Source: Candidatus Woesebacteria bacterium RIFCSPHIGHO2_01_FULL_44_10
Lineage (GTDB): Bacteria > Patescibacteriota > Microgenomatia > UBA8517
NCBI GenBank assembly: GCA_001792465.1
Contig: MGGO01000031.1
Span: 1,172 to 65,171 of the forward strand
Direction of reading: 5' to 3'
Length of the DNA stretch: 64,000 bases
Under the pieces are notes generated by a model. It was not told where the DNA came from, searched no databases, and was given only the letters and a program-made list of their open reading frames with translations. Of the stretch, positions 59,215 through 64,000 are shown one piece after another. The position numbers and the translations under genes were made by a program. Within the stretch, counting starts at the first letter, position 1, and each line of letters opens with the position of its first letter.

Positions 59215-60552
59215 ATGCACTTCACTATACCAGATGAGGTTGGCGGTGTAATCGCTAAGTTTGAGAAAGCCGGCTTTGAAATCTACATCGTTGGCGGAGC
59301 CGTTCGTGACTTGCTTATGGGTAAGAGCGTTATTGACTGGGACTTTGCCACCAATGCCACGCCCGATGAATCACAAAAAGTATTAGGCAAAGACAGCTAT
59401 CATCAGGGATTCGGTACGGTCGGCCTCCCGACCCAAACCGAGGGCTTTAAACCATTTGAAATTACTACCTACCGGATTGAATTTGGTTACTCTGACAAAA
59501 GACGGCCGGACAAAGTCGCCTGGGGTAAAACTCTTGAAGAAGATCTCAAAAGAAGAGATTTTACGATTAATGCCATGGGGCTTACTAAAGTAAAAATAAT
59601 TGATCCACACGGTGGGCAAAAAGATTTAGAAAAAAAACTGATCCGTGCCGTCGGTGGCCCCCAGGAGCGCTTTGCCGAGGATACTCTGCGCATGATGCGG
59701 GCGGTACGCCTGGCAGCTGAGCTTAATTTTAAGATTGAAAAAAAGACACTTGATGCCATCAAAGCAAACTCTACTTTAATCAATAAAATTGCCAGAGAGC
59801 GCATTAGAGACGAACTCATTAAAATCTTGGCTTCACCAAATCCTCACGAAGGTGTGCTCCACTTAAGAGAAACAGGTCTCCTGATCGAGATTCTTCCGGA
59901 GCTCGAAAAAGCTTTTGGAGTCGAACAAAAATCTCCTCAAAGACACCACATTTACGACGTCGGGACACACTGTTTGCTTTCTTTGAAACACTGCCAGTCG
60001 ACTGATCCCATTGTCCGCTTTGCCACTCTTATTCATGACATAGGCAAACCCCAGACTTACAAAAAAATGCCCAACGGGGTAATTACTTTTTATAATCACG
60101 AGGTCGTGGGAACTAGAATTGCCAAAAGGATCGCCGAACGTCTGCGTTTTTCCAATGAACAGGCCAGAAAGTTAATTAAACTGGTCCGCTGGCATCAGTT
60201 CTCGGTTGGCGAAACCCAGACCGATAAAGCCTTGAGAAGGTTTATCACTCGGGTGGGAGTGGAAAATGTTGAAGATATGCTTGAGCTTCGGCGGGCTGAC
60301 CGTCTGGGCAGCGGCGCTCGTGAGACTTCCTGGCGCACGGAGGAGTTTAAAAAGCGCCTCATTGAAGTCCAAAAACAACCCTTTACCATTCACGATCTAA
60401 AAATTACCGGTAACGACGTTATGAAAGTGCTCGGAATTAAACCGGGGCCAAAGATAGGGGAAATTTTAGAAAAACTCTTCGCTGAAGTTGTGGATCAGAA
60501 ACTGCCTAACGACAAAAAGGCCCAATTGACAAGATTAAAAGAACTGGAGTGA
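59215..60552 (+). CDS. cca: CCA-adding tRNA nucleotidyltransferase with HD domain
   Basis: 'IYIVGGAVRDLLMG', 'DWDFAT' and the C-terminal HD 'LIHDIGK'. Confidence 0.7.
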   Translation: MHFTIPDEVGGVIAKFEKAGFEIYIVGGAVRDLLMGKSVIDWDFATNATPDESQKVLGKDSYHQGFGTVGLPTQTEGFKPFEITTYRIEFGYSDKRRPDKVAWGKTLEEDLKRRDFTINAMGLTKVKIIDPHGGQKDLEKKLIRAVGGPQERFAEDTLRMMRAVRLAAELNFKIEKKTLDAIKANSTLINKIARERIRDELIKILASPNPHEGVLHLRETGLLIEILPELEKAFGVEQKSPQRHHIYDVGTHCLLSLKHCQSTDPIVRFATLIHDIGKPQTYKKMPNGVITFYNHEVVGTRIAKRIAERLRFSNEQARKLIKLVRWHQFSVGETQTDKALRRFITRVGVENVEDMLELRRADRLGSGARETSWRTEEFKKRLIEVQKQPFTIHDLKITGNDVMKVLGIKPGPKIGEILEKLFAEVVDQKLPNDKKAQLTRLKELE

Positions 60553-60933
60553 ATATCATATGTGATATTATCTAACTATAAAAAATAAAATTTACACCTT
60601 CGAGAATCATCTTAAAGAAAGCCTTAAGGCCCCGAGTTTCGAAAGACTTGGGAAGATCCGAAGCTTGAGTCTTGGGCGGCAAAACAACTAAACAAACATC
60701 GTTGCCGTCAAAAATTGAGGTTGAAGAATTGTCTTTAGATTGTTTAAAATTATCTGGGGTTGATTAAATCAAAAGGTCACGGCTTCTTGAAATCTTCCTC
60801 TAAAGAAAAAAAGAAAAACTTGGTGTGTTGTACTGGTTGATTCGTTTTCCCATTCGGAAAACTTTATCACAAATAAAATACAGCCGGTTACCAGTTTTGT
60901 GCCGGCAGTGGTTTAAGATGGTACAACTCACGC

Positions 60934-61062
60934 AAAACCGACTCGGATGGTAATCCGAACGTTTTCAATCTGAATCACAACGAAGATGGCCTCTGGTTGA
61001 ATGACAATTGGGCCAATCCTGACAGTCGGTGGAATTCTGACAACGAATTCGTTTTCTCTCTA
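60934..61062 (+). repeat. DGR template repeat (TR)
   Basis: About 125 bp, near-identical to the reverse complement of 62480-62606. Every mismatch is an A in this copy against a non-A in the other. Confidence 0.8.
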
Positions 61063-61080
61063 ACGAAAGTCTTTCTTTTT

Positions 61081-61107
61081 ACCGCACCATTCTAGGTGCG
61101 GTTTTTC
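61081..61107 (+). terminator. Hairpin (ACCGCAC/GTGCGGT stem) followed by a T5 run immediately after the TR. It is terminator-like, or may be a DGR-associated structural element.
   Basis: Read directly from the sequence: a 7-bp perfect stem, an 8-nt loop, then TTTTT. Confidence 0.45.
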
Positions 61108-61361
61108 TTCCAGCCACCAAACATTCTCCCAACCTCATCTAATTTCACCGCCGTTCGCTCGTATTGTTTATGAGAAATAAACTTCGCCTCCCAAGCGATT
61201 GAAACTAGAAATTTAAGAGCATCCAAACAAACAATGCATTCCGTAATTTTTTGGATTTTTGTTTCTTTCGGGCTAAAATAGGCTACATATGAAAACTCCA
61301 AAAGATCCAGAAATTTATTTTCAATTCTGGCTCCAATTAAGTAGCGTGCAGACTTGGGCAT
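61092..61361 (-). CDS. avd: DGR accessory variability determinant (Avd, four-helix-bundle family)
   Basis: '...LVSIAWEAKFISHKQYE...LDEVGRMFGGWKK' matches the Avd/TIGR02436 C-terminus. The annotated ORF start at 61484 runs through the (GA)n tract, so the gene was trimmed to the internal Met. Confidence 0.6.
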   Translation of the reverse strand: MPKSARYLIGARIENKFLDLLEFSYVAYFSPKETKIQKITECIVCLDALKFLVSIAWEAKFISHKQYERTAVKLDEVGRMFGGWKKNRT

Positions 61362-61398
61362 ATGAGGAACGCTAGCCAGCCACAACAAGTATCCCTCT

Positions 61399-62583
61399 TT
61401 GATTTTCCTCAAAATCGAGGAGCTCACCGAGAGAGAGAGAGAGAGAGAGAGAGTAAGGCTGCGCCATACATATAATGATATCATCCGCCTTGAAAATTTT
61501 CTTTCATCCTGGCAAGAGTTTCTAAAGGGTAAGAAAAAGCGCAGGGATGTTTTTGAATTTTCCCTCCACCTGATCGATAATCTTGTTGATCTTCACAAGA
61601 AGTTGACTGACAAAACTTACAGGCACGGAGAATATTTTGCCTTTAAGATAAACGATCCAAAACCAAGGAGTATCCACAAAGCGGGGGTGGCAGACAGACT
61701 TCTCCACCACGCAATCTATAGAATTCTGTATCCCTATTTTGATAAAAAATTCATTTTTGACTCCTATTCTTGCCGTATTGATAAGGGCACTCACAAGGCC
61801 ATCAACCGCTTTCGATACTTCGCCAGAAAAGCTTCCAAAAACAACACACGAACTGCCTGGGTACTAAAATGCGATATCAAAAAATTTTTTGCCAATATCG
61901 ACCACCAAATCTTAAAAAAGATCCTCAAAAATCACATCGCAGACCAAGAAGTACTTTGGTTGCTCAGGCAAGTTATAGATAGTTTTGAAACACCTGAAAA
62001 GCCAGAGACTGGTTTGCCGCTGGGAAACCTAACCAGTCAGCTTTTGGTGAACGTTTACATGAATGAATTTGATCGGTTTATTAAAAGGAAACTCAAAGTG
62101 AAATACTATCTTCGTTATGCCGATGACTTTACCGCCCTGAGTGAAGACAAACAATATTTAGTCGATCTAATTCCTAAAATGTCTCAGTTTTTGCAAACTG
62201 AGCTAAAACTTTCTTTGCACCCAAAAAAAATTTTCATCAAAACGCTGGTTTCCGGAGTTGACTTTTTAGGTTGGACCCACTTTCCCCACCATAGAGTGCT
62301 AAGAACAAGCACAAAACGAAGAATGCTAACAAAATTAAGCAAAAACTTTTCACTAGAAAGCTTGGCCTCGTACCTGGGCCTTTTGAGCCACGGAGACACC
62401 TTCAAACTAAGACAAAAAATCACCAGTAGGCGCCCCGCTTGCGCCGCCAAAGTGTCAAAGAGGCAAAATCTCAAGATTACTTGCGGAGAGAGAAAACGAA
62501 CGCGCTGCCAGAACGCCACCGACTGTCAGGACTGGCCCAATAGTCATCCAACCAGAGGCCATCCCCGTCGTGATCCAGAATGA
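61399..62583 (+). CDS. DGR reverse transcriptase
   Basis: 'LPLGNLTSQLL' is the [I/L]GxxxSQ motif diagnostic of DGR RTs. 'YLRYADDF' is YxDD. The N-terminal 'LKGKKKRRDVFEF..LHKKLTDKTYRHGEY' is typical. The apparent start is TTG, and the exact 5' and 3' ends are uncertain. Confidence 0.8.
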   Translation: MIFLKIEELTERERERERVRLRHTYNDIIRLENFLSSWQEFLKGKKKRRDVFEFSLHLIDNLVDLHKKLTDKTYRHGEYFAFKINDPKPRSIHKAGVADRLLHHAIYRILYPYFDKKFIFDSYSCRIDKGTHKAINRFRYFARKASKNNTRTAWVLKCDIKKFFANIDHQILKKILKNHIADQEVLWLLRQVIDSFETPEKPETGLPLGNLTSQLLVNVYMNEFDRFIKRKLKVKYYLRYADDFTALSEDKQYLVDLIPKMSQFLQTELKLSLHPKKIFIKTLVSGVDFLGWTHFPHHRVLRTSTKRRMLTKLSKNFSLESLASYLGLLSHGDTFKLRQKITSRRPACAAKVSKRQNLKITCGERKRTRCQNATDCQDWPNSHPTRGHPRRDPE

Positions 62584-64000
62584 AAACGTCCGGACCACCA
62601 CCCGAGTCGGCGACTTGTTTCATGCCAATAAATAACCATTCATATAGAGGCTGATCTTTGTATTTCAAGCGCAAAGATGGTCCGACTTCCGCAGGACACA
62701 ACTCAAGTCCCAAAGATTGTGCTTTTGCATATATCTCATCGGTTGTCGCTCCTCTTTCAAAACCCAAGGTACTAATTGTCAACCTAACCAGAGCCAATTT
62801 CCGAGGATTTTTCTCGACTTCAAATTCTCTATTTCGCATCATACTTTCCGCATAGTCACTTACATTAATTCCCTGCCTCTTTAATTCGTTTTGAAGCTGA
62901 TCTTTTGTTTTTCCCCCAATTGTTAAGATTTCACGTCCTATTTTGCCTTCCGGAAAGGACGTATATATCTCAATAGATTCAGGCAAAAACTCAAAAATCC
63001 CCGGGAAGAGTGATCCAATATAGGCTTTTGTACGCTCGTTTATGACGTCAGATGGTCCCCAAGCGATTTGATTGTTATAGATAATTTTAGCGTCACCTAT
63101 CGGATCGCGATCTGGCCTCAATCTTAACTCGGCAATCCGAGGGTCATCTTCATACCCAAATCCCTGTATCTTGGAGTCAACTTCATAAATAAATCTCAAA
63201 TCTTCAATTGATAATTCTTGTCCCTTGTTTACTTTTTCCTCAAGCCCAGTCAATCGCTTCATATCAGCAGAGGCTTTGCGGTACTTTTCCGCGCCAGGAA
63301 GTTGGTCAATTTTTTCCTCGGCAATGGTAACCATATTTGCTTCCAAGTTTTGATCTTTATCTGCTACTCCCCGGGCTTCAAAAATTTCTCCCTTTTGCAT
63401 CCGGATGGCAATTCTGGGAATTGTTGGATTACCGTATTTATCAGGTGTGTAGTAAACATAAAAATCCCCACCTTCCAGTTGTGCCTTTGCGGTGCCAAAA
63501 CCAGCAGTGCACCAAGAGGTACCTTTATTTTGCAGTGATTTCCAAAGTTCAGTTGGGTCAGACCCTTGACGGTAAGCAATCCACATTCCTTTGGTTTCCT
63601 CTTTCATCTCAGAGGTGATCTCGCCCTTTTGTTTTATTCCTTCAGCATATTGGTCAGCAAACGACATCCTTGCAAATTCCCGCGCTTCTCTTTGTGTTAA
63701 AACGTCGTTTTCTGGGACATTCATCCTTCTTTGCGCTTTTTGAATATTCTCAAGAGCCCGATTGTCATACGCCGCGCTGATCATATCCTGAACATACCCC
63801 AAAGCACTCCTGTCTATATCCGGAAAAAGAAAGTTCGTTCCTGGAGAGCGCTTGGGGAACTTACCTTCATCCTTGTCCCAACGACCTAAACTTAAAATAC
63901 TTCGGAAAGCATAGTAGCGGAACCATGGGGCATATGGCTCATTGGGGTCAGAAAAATAATTTATCCATTGGTCCAGCGATTTTTCCAGATCCTCAACTGC
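62477..64000 (-). CDS. DGR target protein with C-terminal variable repeat. The N-terminus runs off the window end, so the gene is partial.
   Basis: The reading frame stays open to position 64000 upstream of the annotated start. The C-terminal 42 aa are encoded by the VR. Confidence 0.7.
   Translation of the reverse strand, partial: AVEDLEKSLDQWINYFSDPNEPYAPWFRYYAFRSILSLGRWDKDEGKFPKRSPGTNFLFPDIDRSALGYVQDMISAAYDNRALENIQKAQRRMNVPENDVLTQREAREFARMSFADQYAEGIKQKGEITSEMKEETKGMWIAYRQGSDPTELWKSLQNKGTSWCTAGFGTAKAQLEGGDFYVYYTPDKYGNPTIPRIAIRMQKGEIFEARGVADKDQNLEANMVTIAEEKIDQLPGAEKYRKASADMKRLTGLEEKVNKGQELSIEDLRFIYEVDSKIQGFGYEDDPRIAELRLRPDRDPIGDAKIIYNNQIAWGPSDVINERTKAYIGSLFPGIFEFLPESIEIYTSFPEGKIGREILTIGGKTKDQLQNELKRQGINVSDYAESMMRNREFEVEKNPRKLALVRLTISTLGFERGATTDEIYAKAQSLGLELCPAEVGPSLRLKYKDQPLYEWLFIGMKQVADSGGGPDVFILDHDGDGLWLDDYWASPDSRWRSGSAFVFSLRK
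62480..62606 (-). repeat. DGR variable repeat (VR) at the 3' end of the target gene
   Basis: See the TR entry. The TR-A to VR-N substitutions include GG, G, T, G, CG, G, G and C. Confidence 0.8.

What the first reader, a model, noticed from the sequence alone, without database searches (positions are those of the whole stretch)
61429..61452. (GA)12 microsatellite at the 5' end of the DGR RT ORF and antisense in the Avd upstream region
A perfect (GA)12 tract lies 30 nt into the apparent TTG-initiated RT reading frame, where it encodes (ER)4. It also falls in the region where the minus-strand Avd transcript would initiate. Slipped-strand changes of plus or minus one GA unit would frameshift the RT N-terminus, or change promoter spacing. 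This gives a plausible ON/OFF phase-variation switch for DGR activity. Alternatively the true RT start lies downstream and the tract is 5'UTR.
Basis: partly seen in the sequence, partly recalled or inferred. Interest (0 to 1): 0.55.

Follow-up and report, generated by a model that had tools for sequence, protein, structure and literature searches.

The report
Hypervariable repeat at DGR avd–RT junction
A GA repeat wedged between the two head-to-head enzyme genes of a targeted-mutation system (a DGR) in an uncultured groundwater bacterium changes length between otherwise identical natural populations and has a counterpart in over 130 related elements, so it most likely acts as a random on/off or dimmer switch for the mutation machinery.

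Summary
The (GA)12.5 tract at 61429-61453 is real and is the only long simple repeat in the 64-kb window. It lies where a minus-strand avd and a plus-strand DGR reverse transcriptase (RT) meet head to head (TR-(avd)-RT architecture, Candidatus Woesebacteria).

- Hypervariable: six other assemblies of this locus carry 25, 23, 21 or 19 nt, and that is the only difference in 3.4-5.6 kb. All three reading frames occur.
- Conserved as a repeat, not as a sequence: 134 of 138 related CPR loci carry poly-G, (GA)n, mixed or (GT)n at this position, always G-rich on the RT-sense strand. None of comparable length occurs in 967 kb of flanking DNA.
- In the window, the RT has canonical start codons only upstream of the tract. 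Each GA unit rotates it through a TTG frame, a no-start frame and an ATG frame. Avd keeps a start in every frame.
- In many poly-G relatives the tract abuts a -10-like hexamer of a leaderless-type RT promoter.

Best reading: a contingency-type repeat switch controlling DGR expression. I found no prior description. An effect on expression is inferred, not shown. The main rival is a constitutive purine-rich leader.

The parts
61429..61453 (.). (GA)12.5 simple-sequence tract; (TC)n on the avd-sense strand. Alleles of 25, 23, 21 and 19 nt are seen in natural populations.
   Evidence: sequence and chance expectation; alleles in L001, L083-L088; protein-length variants
61399..62583 (+). DGR reverse transcriptase ORF as delimited by its only in-frame canonical start in the 25- and 19-nt alleles (TTG 61399). 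The conserved RT body begins at His23 (61465). Residues 1-20 comprise the antisense of the Avd N-terminus, (ER)4 and VR.
61362..61364 (+). Alternative upstream ATG that comes into frame with the RT body in the 21-nt (and 27-nt) alleles, giving the 405-aa product MRNASQPQQVSLFD...(RE)n. It is the antisense of a conserved Avd His codon.
   Evidence: P0122 / L084
61092..61427 (-). avd (bAvd-like four-helix-bundle accessory protein). GTG 61427-61425 lies 1 nt from the tract. The ORF stays open through the tract, with an upstream ATG in each frame (61484, 61471, 61467).
61454..61464 (+). 11-nt segment TAAGGCTGCGC between the tract and His23. It holds no ATG/GTG/TTG, and its TAA is out of the RT frame. 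It holds a CTG at 61459.
60938..61061 (+). Template repeat (TR), in the same sense as the RT.
61081..61102 (+). GC-rich hairpin followed by a T-run directly after TR (terminator-like; possibly the Avd-binding stem-loop equivalent). It overlaps the avd stop codon.
   Evidence: comparable hairpins follow TR in many related loci
62487..62610 (-). Variable repeat (VR) at the 3' end of the convergent target gene. It overlaps the RT ORF tail in antisense.
62477..64000 (-). 3' part of the DGR target gene (618 aa in the public gene call; it runs beyond the window end).
61395..61422 (+). Conserved imperfect hairpin CUCUUUGAUUUU-CCUC-AAAAUCGAGGAG just upstream of the tract. It has two U-G pairs that exist only on the RT-sense strand. 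Its status is inconclusive.

Best explanation
The tract is a slippage-prone simple-sequence repeat that is kept by selection at the head-to-head junction of avd and the DGR reverse transcriptase. It acts as a stochastic, heritable, reversible switch or dimmer on expression of the DGR machinery, mainly the RT.

In this window the mechanism would be translational. The RT body (from His23, 61465) has no start codon of its own. Gain or loss of one GA unit rotates it through three states:
- in frame with TTG 61399 (19 or 25 nt);
- no canonical start, so OFF or near-OFF (17, 23 or 29 nt);
- in frame with ATG 61362 (21 or 27 nt).

Avd keeps a start in every state.

In poly-G relatives, where both genes have their own ATG, the homologous tract fills the stretch directly upstream of a -10-like hexamer of a leaderless-type RT promoter. 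There it would act on transcription through -35/-10 spacing.

Shown: hypermutability in nature, position-specific conservation of 'repeatness', and the frame consequences. Inferred: that translation or transcription actually responds to tract length, and that this modulates mutagenic retrohoming.
For: (1) Natural length polymorphism on a clonal background. WIN and L001 carry 25 nt, L085 and L086 23 nt, L084 21 nt, and L083/L088 and L087 19 nt. The GA units are the only differences in window 60501-63900. L084-L088 show 0 mismatches and 1 gap over 5.3-5.6 kb. The protein clusters mirror this, with RT calls of 394/392/405/326/298 aa and Avd calls of 130/128/125 aa.

(2) Other lineages with identical 40-nt flanks also differ in tract length: L112 29 nt against L124 37 nt, L106/L150 G18 against L115 G9, and L110/L148 G9 against L117 G8. 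L089 (21 nt) and L145 (15 nt) have near-identical flanks. The changes are not restricted to multiples of 3.

(3) Position-specific conservation. 134 of 138 related loci, from many CPR lineages and with RTs about 57-71% identical, carry a tract between avd(-) and RT(+). Among the 115 unique flank signatures there are 54 (GA)n of 6-43 nt, 53 poly-G of 6-18, 7 mixed and 1 (GT)13. In 967 kb of their flanks the longest G or C run is 7 and the longest dinucleotide repeat is 5 units.

(4) The repeat unit changes (G, GA, GT, mixed) while the location and purity are kept. This points to selection on repeat behaviour rather than on a specific sequence.

(5) The solved bRT aligns from its residue 5 to ORF residue 21, so a natural RT N-terminus maps to the tract's 3' edge. 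In the GA-flank family only 18 of 73 loci have a canonical start there, 32 have only upstream starts reached through the tract, and 21 have none in frame.

(6) The stretch between the tract and His23 avoids in-frame stops: 2 observed against 15.3 expected, although TAA/TAG usually follows the tract. On the other strand the Avd N-terminus x-N-A-S-I-L-x-R-I-K-E-G-Y is conserved as protein right up to the tract, with synonymous Leu codons and no start codon in 70 of 71 loci. Both ORFs therefore run open into the tract.

(7) Allele-by-allele frame table for this window.

(8) In the poly-G class, 17 of 38 loci have TAnnnT abutting the tract (background about 7%). Nine of these have the RT start exactly 7 nt further on, and -35-like hexamers lie 16-19 nt upstream. 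This is the geometry of known promoter-spacer phase variation.
Against: - There are no expression data, so ON and OFF are predicted from frames only.
- Across loci, being in frame with an upstream start is exactly at chance: RT 14 of 23 against 14.0 expected, Avd 11 of 23 against 11.3, and Avd 25 of 71 against 30.7. Consensus sequences therefore show no selection for ON. This is equally what a non-coding leader would give.
- 18 of 73 GA-flank loci and most poly-G loci have their own start after the tract yet still keep the tract, so frameshifting cannot be its universal role.
- (GA)n lengths of 6-43 nt are incompatible with a -35/-10 spacer role in that class, and no consensus promoter flanks the tract in the window.
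- The G-rich strand is always RT-sense (134 of 134). This may reflect common descent, but it could also signal a strand-specific RNA function.
- VR is identical in all assemblies whatever the allele, so no link to DGR activity can be read off.
- A near-cognate start (CTG 61459) could give low constitutive RT synthesis.
- Consensus assemblies could in principle misreport repeat length, although 150-nt reads and k = 141 contigs span 19-25 nt easily.
Confidence: 0.55

Rival explanations
1. The tract is a constitutive purine-rich leader or ribosome-recruiting element. It would be part of the RT mRNA 5' leader and work through its composition, as a Shine-Dalgarno-like or standby site that pairs with the pyrimidine-rich 3' end of 16S rRNA. 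RT initiation would occur just downstream, at ATG where present and otherwise at near-cognate codons such as CTG 61459. Length variation would be a tolerated by-product, not a switch.
For: - Where a start exists in the GA class it sits 1-5 nt after the tract, for example GAGAG-GAAA-ATG, GAGAG-TAGA-ATG and GAGAGA-A-ATG.
- Tract-less L079 has a decayed purine run containing AAGGAG followed by a TTG start two codons before His.
- The natural bRT N-terminus maps to the tract's 3' edge.
- The frame across the tract is random.
- The G-rich strand is always RT-sense.
Against: - 53 of 73 GA-flank loci have no canonical start after the tract.
- (GA)n matches the core anti-SD by only about 3 nt.
- In the poly-G class the tract is 4-52 nt from the ATG, most often 13 nt, and is often separated from it by a -10-like hexamer, with the ATG placed as in a leaderless mRNA. 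The tract may therefore not even be in that mRNA.
- One locus uses (GT)n.
- The idea does not explain why perfect, long, slippage-prone repeats are kept rather than a stable purine-rich sequence, when such repeats are purged everywhere else.
- It does not explain stop avoidance in the RT frame right after the tract.
Confidence: 0.25
2. The tract is a structural nucleic-acid element of the retrohoming machinery. The homopurine tract, as RNA or DNA, would be bound by RT/Avd, or would pair with pyrimidine-rich sequence downstream of TR, or would serve like a polypurine tract or non-B (H-DNA) element needed for cDNA synthesis or for control of divergent transcription.
For: - The strand asymmetry is strict (134 of 134 G-rich on the RT/TR-sense strand).
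- A hairpin lies next to the tract in both classes, is more stable on the RT-sense strand in 53 of 73 GA-flank loci, and has invariant U-G pairs.
- A pyrimidine-rich stretch and hairpin follow TR in nearly all loci.
- In the Bordetella phage DGR the RNA just upstream of brt binds bRT (bioRxiv 10.1101/2023.10.23.563531).
Against: - TR and VR 3' ends show no complementarity that covaries with tract type: there are no C-runs in poly-G loci.
- Hairpin covariation is not significant, and its conservation is explained by Avd codons.
- Lengths from 6 to 43 nt and unit switches among G, GA and GT are hard to reconcile with a specific binding or pairing site.
- G6-G12 is too short for H-DNA.
- There is no Rfam match.
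- The tract lies about 370 nt beyond TR, past a terminator-like hairpin.
Confidence: 0.12
3. The tract is a neutral mutational hotspot or an assembly artefact. It would have no function, and the length differences would be sequencing or assembly noise or drift.
For: - Dinucleotide repeats stutter in PCR-based libraries.
- Several assemblies break or have N-gaps at the tract.
Against: - The tract is present at the same position in 134 of 138 loci from independent projects and many CPR lineages, against zero comparable repeats in 967 kb of flanks.
- Repeat purity is maintained over RT divergence down to about 60% identity.
- The same length is recovered in independent assemblies (WIN and L001 25 nt; L083/L088 and L087 19 nt; L085 and L086 23 nt).
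- The tracts (19-25 nt) are far shorter than the reads and the k-mers used.
Confidence: 0.05

Closest known systems
SSR-mediated translational phase variation in contingency loci (for example poly-G tracts in Campylobacter jejuni genes, tetranucleotide repeats in Haemophilus influenzae lic/mod genes, dinucleotide CT/GA repeats in Helicobacter genes)
   Same: It is a perfect, slippage-prone repeat near the 5' end of an ORF. Unit changes shift the frame relative to the start codon. Different lengths coexist in otherwise clonal natural populations. Repeats are otherwise depleted in the genome.
   Different: - The controlled gene is not a surface or restriction-modification gene but the reverse transcriptase of a targeted hypermutation system.
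- The repeat lies in the overlap of two divergent ORFs.
- Two of the three frames have a start, so it is a three-state switch rather than a two-state one.
- The host is a CPR bacterium, a group in which I found no report of phase variation.
- Switching of expression has not been demonstrated.
Promoter-spacer phase variation (Neisseria meningitidis porA poly-G and opc poly-C between -35 and -10; H. influenzae hifA/hifB (TA)n in overlapping divergent promoters)
   Same: In the poly-G relatives the G-run abuts a -10-like hexamer and fills the spacer, with -35-like hexamers 16-19 nt upstream and G lengths clustered at 8-11. As with hif, the tract sits between divergently oriented genes that work together.
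   Different: In the window itself and in the GA class, lengths of 6-43 nt rule out a -35/-10 spacer role, and no consensus promoter flanks the tract. CPR promoters are uncharacterised. The comparison with porA, opc and hif rests on my own knowledge of those systems plus PMC3639595 (abstract seen).
Diversity-generating retroelements, architecture B3, TR-(avd)-RT (Wu et al. 2018, PMC5758913)
   Same: The window's element has exactly this architecture, which that survey reports for 90% of its CPR DGR set. It has a DGR-type RT, a bAvd-like protein and a TR/VR pair with adenine-specific differences.
   Different: That survey has no occurrence of 'promoter' or 'spacer' and none of the passages I retrieved mentions a repeat tract at the avd-RT junction. 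The prototype Bordetella phage DGR has avd-TR-brt co-oriented with a 140-nt structured spacer, not a repeat.
5'-UTR SSR phase variation acting through mRNA structure or processing (H. influenzae, PMC12721329)
   Same: It is an intergenic or leader SSR whose length could change 5'-UTR structure or processing rather than the frame. This would cover loci where RT has its own start after the tract.
   Different: There is no evidence here for a processing site. The adjacent hairpin is not statistically supported.

Membership tests
SSR contingency (phase-variable) locus | Perfect simple-sequence repeat long enough to slip (about 7 or more G/C, or about 5-6 or more dinucleotide units) | tested here: met
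   (GA)12.5 with 100% matches. Relatives carry G6-G18 and (GA)n of 6-43 nt.
SSR contingency (phase-variable) locus | Repeat located in the 5' part of an ORF or in its promoter or leader | tested here: met
   The tract lies 30 nt into the only canonical RT ORF and 1 nt from the avd GTG. In poly-G relatives it abuts a -10-like hexamer.
SSR contingency (phase-variable) locus | Repeat-number polymorphism among otherwise near-identical genomes or populations | tested here: met
   Alleles of 25, 23, 21 and 19 nt, with 0 mismatches in 5.3-5.6 kb. Further identical-flank groups also differ in length.
SSR contingency (phase-variable) locus | Repeat number changes expression (ON/OFF or graded) | not testable with these tools
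   Only predicted: TTG frame, no-start frame and ATG frame. There are no transcript or protein data.
SSR contingency (phase-variable) locus | High-frequency, reversible switching within a lineage | not testable with these tools
   Inferred from four alleles spaced one unit apart on a clonal background. It needs read-level or culture data.
Diversity-generating retroelement (architecture B3) | DGR-type RT, Avd accessory gene, TR/VR pair with adenine-specific mismatches, gene order TR-(avd)-RT | tested here: met
   RVT_1 and bAvd matches. The best solved-structure match is bRT 8ub7 (E = 6.5e-40). TR 60938-61061 and VR 62487-62610 differ at 18 positions, predominantly at TR adenines. The architecture is named in PMC5758913.
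Promoter-spacer SSR (porA/opc/hif type) | Tract lies between -35 and -10 hexamers so that spacer length (about 16-18) depends on repeat number | tested here: not met
   Window: no -35/-10 pair flanks the tract, and 19-25 nt of tract plus flanks exceeds any spacer. Relatives: partly met in 17 of 38 poly-G loci.
Shine-Dalgarno / ribosome-binding leader | Complementarity to the 16S 3' end, 5-10 nt upstream of a start codon | tested here: inconclusive
   The window has no ATG/GTG/TTG after the tract, only CTG 5 nt downstream. Spacing fits in the 18 GA-flank loci with their own start but not in the poly-G class. The 16S rRNA is not in the window. SD usage by the window's genes looks weak.

The most novel reading that the evidence does not exclude
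CPR bacteria have coupled two diversity generators. A hypermutable simple-sequence repeat, conserved for its mutability and interconverting among poly-G, (GA)n and (GT)n, sits in the overlap of the divergent avd and RT genes. It stochastically switches the DGR mutagenesis machinery between OFF and different ON levels. A clonal population therefore always contains 'mutator' and 'stable' subpopulations for the DGR target protein. This would be the first regulatory principle described for DGRs of the TR-(avd)-RT type and the first contingency locus in the Candidate Phyla Radiation. In the GA class both proteins would be initiated across the repeat, which would be a two-gene, head-to-head overlapping switch.
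Probability: 0.45. Interest if true: 0.88.

Novelty: new variant of a known kind. Interest (0 to 1): 0.78.

Why it matters
How DGRs are regulated is largely unknown, yet unrestrained adenine mutagenesis of a functional target gene should be costly. A heritable but reversible random switch on the reverse transcriptase would give a simple population-level answer: bet-hedging between diversifying and keeping a working variant.

The tract is found in more than 130 elements across many CPR lineages, the group richest in DGRs. It offers a directly testable handle: tract length against RT level and against VR turnover, in metagenomic time series or in reporter constructs.

It also has practical consequences.
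- Gene callers give these RTs and Avds variable, artefactual N-termini (MILLRIEAL..., MRxNxxPxQISLFD..., (ER)n, (LS)n) depending on tract length.
- Assemblies often break at this point.

It also shows that CPR genomes, which otherwise purge simple repeats, retain one at a specific regulatory position.

Tried and rejected
(1) Pairing of (GA)n with the TTTTCTCTCT shared by the TR and VR 3' ends (a primer-template idea). Rejected: in 60 or so related loci the TR/VR 3' ends do not covary with tract type, and poly-G loci have no C-runs there. The window's TCTCTCT is just the target's C-terminal F-S-L codons.

(2) Avd start at TTG 61412, by homology with the poly-G-class ATG. Rejected as a general start: the homologous codon is an ordinary Leu (TTG 31, CTC 17, CTT 11, CTG 8).

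(3) The public annotation's Avd start at ATG 61388 (98 aa). Rejected: it removes helix 1. The Pfam bAvd match begins at profile position 17, and the conserved N-terminus extends to the tract.

(4) Selection for in-frame upstream starts. Tested for both genes, and the result is exactly at chance.

(5) Hairpin beside the tract as an RT-sense RNA structure. It is more stable on the RT-sense strand (53 against 20 loci), but covariation is not significant and the invariant stem is confounded by Avd codons. Left inconclusive.

(6) Exact-flank scan of JGI metagenome contigs for more alleles of this locus. It gave 0 hits.

(7) Rfam scan of 60400-62700. It gave no match.

(8) Consensus sigma-70 promoter at the tract in the window. 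None was found.

(9) SD usage survey of the window's genes. It was too noisy to decide.

(10) Solved-structure search for Avd. It gave no sequence match.

(11) Literature. Five full-text searches and text look-ups in two DGR papers found no description of a repeat tract in DGRs. Paul et al. 2017 (Nature Microbiology) is not held in the library and could not be checked.
Full report
OBSERVATION

Window 61429-61453 reads (GA)12 plus a final G, 25 nt with 100% repeat identity. It is the only dinucleotide microsatellite TRF reports in the 64-kb window. A 12-nt GA pattern is expected 0.34 times by chance, and 0 of 100 shuffles reach the observed count. The window has no G or C run longer than 7 and no other dinucleotide repeat of 6 or more units. 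The tract starts 30 nt into the ORF 61399-62583 (TTG start) and reads (ER)4 there.

CONTEXT

The window matches a Candidatus Woesebacteria genome (RIFCSPHIGHO2_01_FULL_44_10; P0001 is 100% identical). The local layout is as follows.
- TR lies at 60938-61061 on the + strand.
- A GC hairpin with a T-run lies at 61081-61102 (+).
- avd is on the minus strand from 61092 up to the tract.
- The tract follows.
- The RT is on the + strand.
- The target gene is on the minus strand from 62477 onward, with its VR at 62487-62610.

This is the TR-(avd)-RT 'architecture B3', which Wu et al. report for 90% of their CPR DGR set (PMC5758913).

THE TRACT IS HYPERVARIABLE IN NATURE

The 90%-identity protein clusters of the RT and Avd contain otherwise identical sequences of different length: RT 394, 392, 405, 326 and 298 aa, and Avd 130, 128 and 125 aa. 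They differ only by the number of ER or LS repeats, or by the N-terminal frame. I fetched the contigs and aligned window 60501-63900 with them. The only differences are GA units:
- 25 nt in the window and L001;
- 23 nt in L085 and L086;
- 21 nt in L084;
- 19 nt in L083/L088 and L087.

Over the full 5.3-5.6 kb shared with the window, L084-L088 have 0 mismatches and a single gap, which is the tract. Four alleles spaced one unit apart on a clonal background, covering all three reading frames, means that the tract mutates far faster than anything around it. TR, avd, RT and VR are identical in all of them.

THE TRACT IS A CONSERVED FEATURE OF A LARGE CLADE

The N-termini of the 120 closest RT homologues (63-72% identical) nearly all contain an (ER)n or (RE)n stretch of varying length at the same position. 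It is preceded by one of two recurrent peptides, MILLRIEAL... or MRxNxxPxQISLFD.... These are the same DNA read in two frames, and both are the antisense of the Avd N-terminus.

At DNA level I examined 80 loci from GTDB genomes and 73 loci from metagenomes. Of 138 loci with enough upstream sequence, 134 have a simple-sequence tract between avd(-) and RT(+). Among the 115 unique flank signatures there are 54 pure (GA)n (6-43 nt, median 22.5), 53 poly-G (6-18, median 9), 7 mixed GA/G and one (GT)13. The G-rich strand is always the RT-sense strand. In 967 kb of DNA flanking these same loci, the longest G or C run is 7, the longest A or T run is 9, and the longest dinucleotide repeat is 5 units.

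Simple repeats are therefore purged everywhere except at this one position, where they are kept long and pure while the repeat unit itself changes. Other lineages with identical 40-nt flanks also differ in tract length, and not by multiples of three: 29 against 37 nt, G18 against G9, and G9 against G8. L089 (21 nt) and L145 (15 nt) have near-identical flanks.

WHERE DO THE TWO GENES START?

RT. The solved Bordetella phage bRT (8ub7_A) aligns from its residue 5 to ORF residue 21, so a functional DGR RT N-terminus corresponds to the 3' edge of the tract. The window has no ATG, GTG or TTG between the tract and the invariant His23 (61465). The 11 nt in between are TAAGGCTGCGC, with only a CTG at 61459.

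In the 'GA-flank' family (73 unique loci):
- 18 have a canonical start in that short segment, typically ATG 3-4 codons before His, as in bRT;
- 32 have only an upstream start reached through the tract;
- 21 have no canonical in-frame start at all;
- 2 have a stop in the RT frame after the tract.

The segment between tract and His avoids stops in the RT frame: 2 observed against 15.3 expected, although TAA/TAG usually follows the tract directly. This suggests that ribosomes read from the tract into the RT, with the caveat that the loci are phylogenetically related.

Avd. The peptide x-N-A-S-I-L-x-R-I-K-E-G-Y is conserved right up to the tract. The codon homologous to the ATG of poly-G-class Avds is an ordinary, synonymously varying Leu (TTG 31, CTC 17, CTT 11, CTG 8). 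70 of 71 loci have no start codon between the tract and this peptide. The window is the exception, with GTG 61427.

Both ORFs therefore run open into the tract. Being in frame with a start on the far side is nevertheless exactly at chance: RT 14 of 23 against 14.0 expected, Avd 11 of 23 against 11.3, and Avd 25 of 71 against 30.7. Tract length modulo 3 is uniform (p = 0.31). That pattern is what rapid switching would produce. It is also what a non-coding leader would produce, so it does not decide between the two.

THIS WINDOW, ALLELE BY ALLELE

- 19 and 25 nt put the RT body in frame with TTG 61399.
- 21 and 27 nt put it in frame with ATG 61362. This is the 405-aa product actually called in L084.
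- 17, 23 and 29 nt leave it with no canonical start, because a stop lies at 61400 in that frame. In L085 and L086 the gene callers fell back to internal starts of 326 and 298 aa, which delete conserved residues.

Avd always has GTG 61427 on its own side of the tract. It also has an ATG in each of the three frames upstream of the tract (61484, 61471, 61467). These ATGs are the antisense of conserved RT codons. In this element one GA unit therefore toggles the RT, not Avd.

THE POLY-G RELATIVES

Here both genes have their own ATG, and the tract is truly intergenic. In 17 of 38 loci a TAnnnT hexamer abuts the G-run, against a background of about 7%. In 9 of these the RT start codon lies exactly 7 nt further on, which is the geometry of a leaderless-mRNA promoter. 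Hexamers resembling -35 elements (TTGCAA, GTGGCA, CTGGCA) lie 16-19 nt upstream, so the G-run occupies the 3' part of the spacer. G lengths cluster tightly at 8-11. From my own knowledge, this mirrors promoter-spacer phase variation at Neisseria porA and opc, and the (TA)n between the divergent hifA/hifB promoters of H. influenzae. PorA poly-G phase variation is cited from the abstract of PMC3639595.

INTERPRETATION

The best-supported reading is a contingency-type repeat kept for its mutability. It acts on RT translation in the GA class, including this window, and on RT transcription in the poly-G class. It gives stochastic, heritable and reversible control of the DGR machinery.

Shown:
- the repeat, its natural length polymorphism, and its position-specific conservation against a repeat-free background;
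- the lack of an own start codon for the RT in this window;
- the frame consequences of each allele.

Inferred:
- that translation or transcription follows these predictions;
- that DGR activity changes as a result.

RIVALS

(a) A constitutive purine-rich leader or ribosome-recruiting element, with length variation as a by-product. Points in favour are the 1-5 nt spacing to ATG where one exists, and L079, where a decayed tract contains AAGGAG followed by a TTG. Points against are the 53 of 73 loci without a start, the poly-G geometry, the one (GT)n locus, and the unexplained retention of perfect repeats.

(b) A structural RNA or DNA element of retrohoming. The strict strand bias and the adjacent hairpin are suggestive. 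However, TR/VR ends do not covary with tract type, hairpin covariation is not significant, there is no Rfam match, and the length and unit variability argue against a specific site.

(c) A neutral hotspot or an artefact. The conservation statistics and the concordant independent assemblies exclude this.

COMPARISON WITH WHAT IS KNOWN, AND NOVELTY

SSR phase variation and DGRs are each well known. Five full-text searches and text look-ups in the main CPR-DGR survey and in the bRT-RNA structure preprint found no description of a repeat tract in a DGR, or of phase-variable control of a DGR. Paul et al. 2017 is not held in the library and could not be checked. I therefore rate this as a new variant of a known kind: a contingency repeat governing a targeted-hypermutation retroelement, in a bacterial radiation where I found no report of phase variation.

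VERDICT

Interest 0.78.

Noticed in passing
window 62487-62583 (RT ORF tail) against VR 62487-62610 on the minus strand: The last 30 or so codons of the RT ORF are encoded antisense to the target gene's VR, so adenine mutagenesis of VR would also rewrite, and could truncate or extend, the non-conserved C-terminal tail of the RT. Homologous RTs end near residue 345 of this 394-aa ORF.
   Followed up: partly
L153 (metagenome contig ERZ1292640...39313), just after its (GA)7.5 tract: A second microsatellite, (TAG)9, directly follows the GA tract. Sister loci L109 and L156 have a single TAG there followed by the RT's ATG. The post-tract TAG/TAA seems itself prone to expansion.
   Followed up: no
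L012, L015, L040, L044, L062, L063, L077 (upstream ends or N-gaps): Several assemblies end, or carry a scaffold gap, exactly at the tract. L012 and L077 start in long C/G runs. This fits population heterogeneity or sequencing difficulty at the repeat, and is a practical reason why many CPR DGR contigs are truncated here.
   Followed up: no
L076, upstream of RT: One locus has (GT)13 in place of poly-G or (GA)n at the homologous position. It is the only non-homopurine tract among 134.
   Followed up: no
967 kb of flanks of L002-L081, L089-L161 and the window: Simple repeats are strongly depleted in these CPR genomes: the longest G or C run is 7, the longest A or T run is 9, and the longest dinucleotide repeat is 5 units. 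The junction tract is the sole exception.
   Followed up: yes
window 60553-60937 and 61062-61110: The TR appears to be its own transcription unit. Promoter-like sites lie at 60562-60591 and 60721-60750 (+). A terminator-like hairpin with a T-run lies at 61081-61102 (+) and overlaps the avd stop codon. Comparable pyrimidine-rich stretches with a GC hairpin follow TR in most related loci.
   Followed up: partly
L079, L020 (tract-less relatives), upstream of RT His codon: Two of the four loci without a tract have their own TTG start 2-3 codons before the conserved His. L079 shows a decayed purine run (AGAAGGAGAAAGAAGAAG) containing an SD-like AAGGAG, which looks like a fossil of the tract.
   Followed up: partly
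public gene calls for this locus (L001, L083-L088; P0121-P0134): Automatic annotation gives the same RT five different N-termini and lengths, and gives Avd lengths of 89 to 130 aa across the locus gene calls and the cluster members, depending only on tract length. Database clusters of CPR DGR RTs and Avds are polluted by these artefactual extensions.
   Followed up: yes
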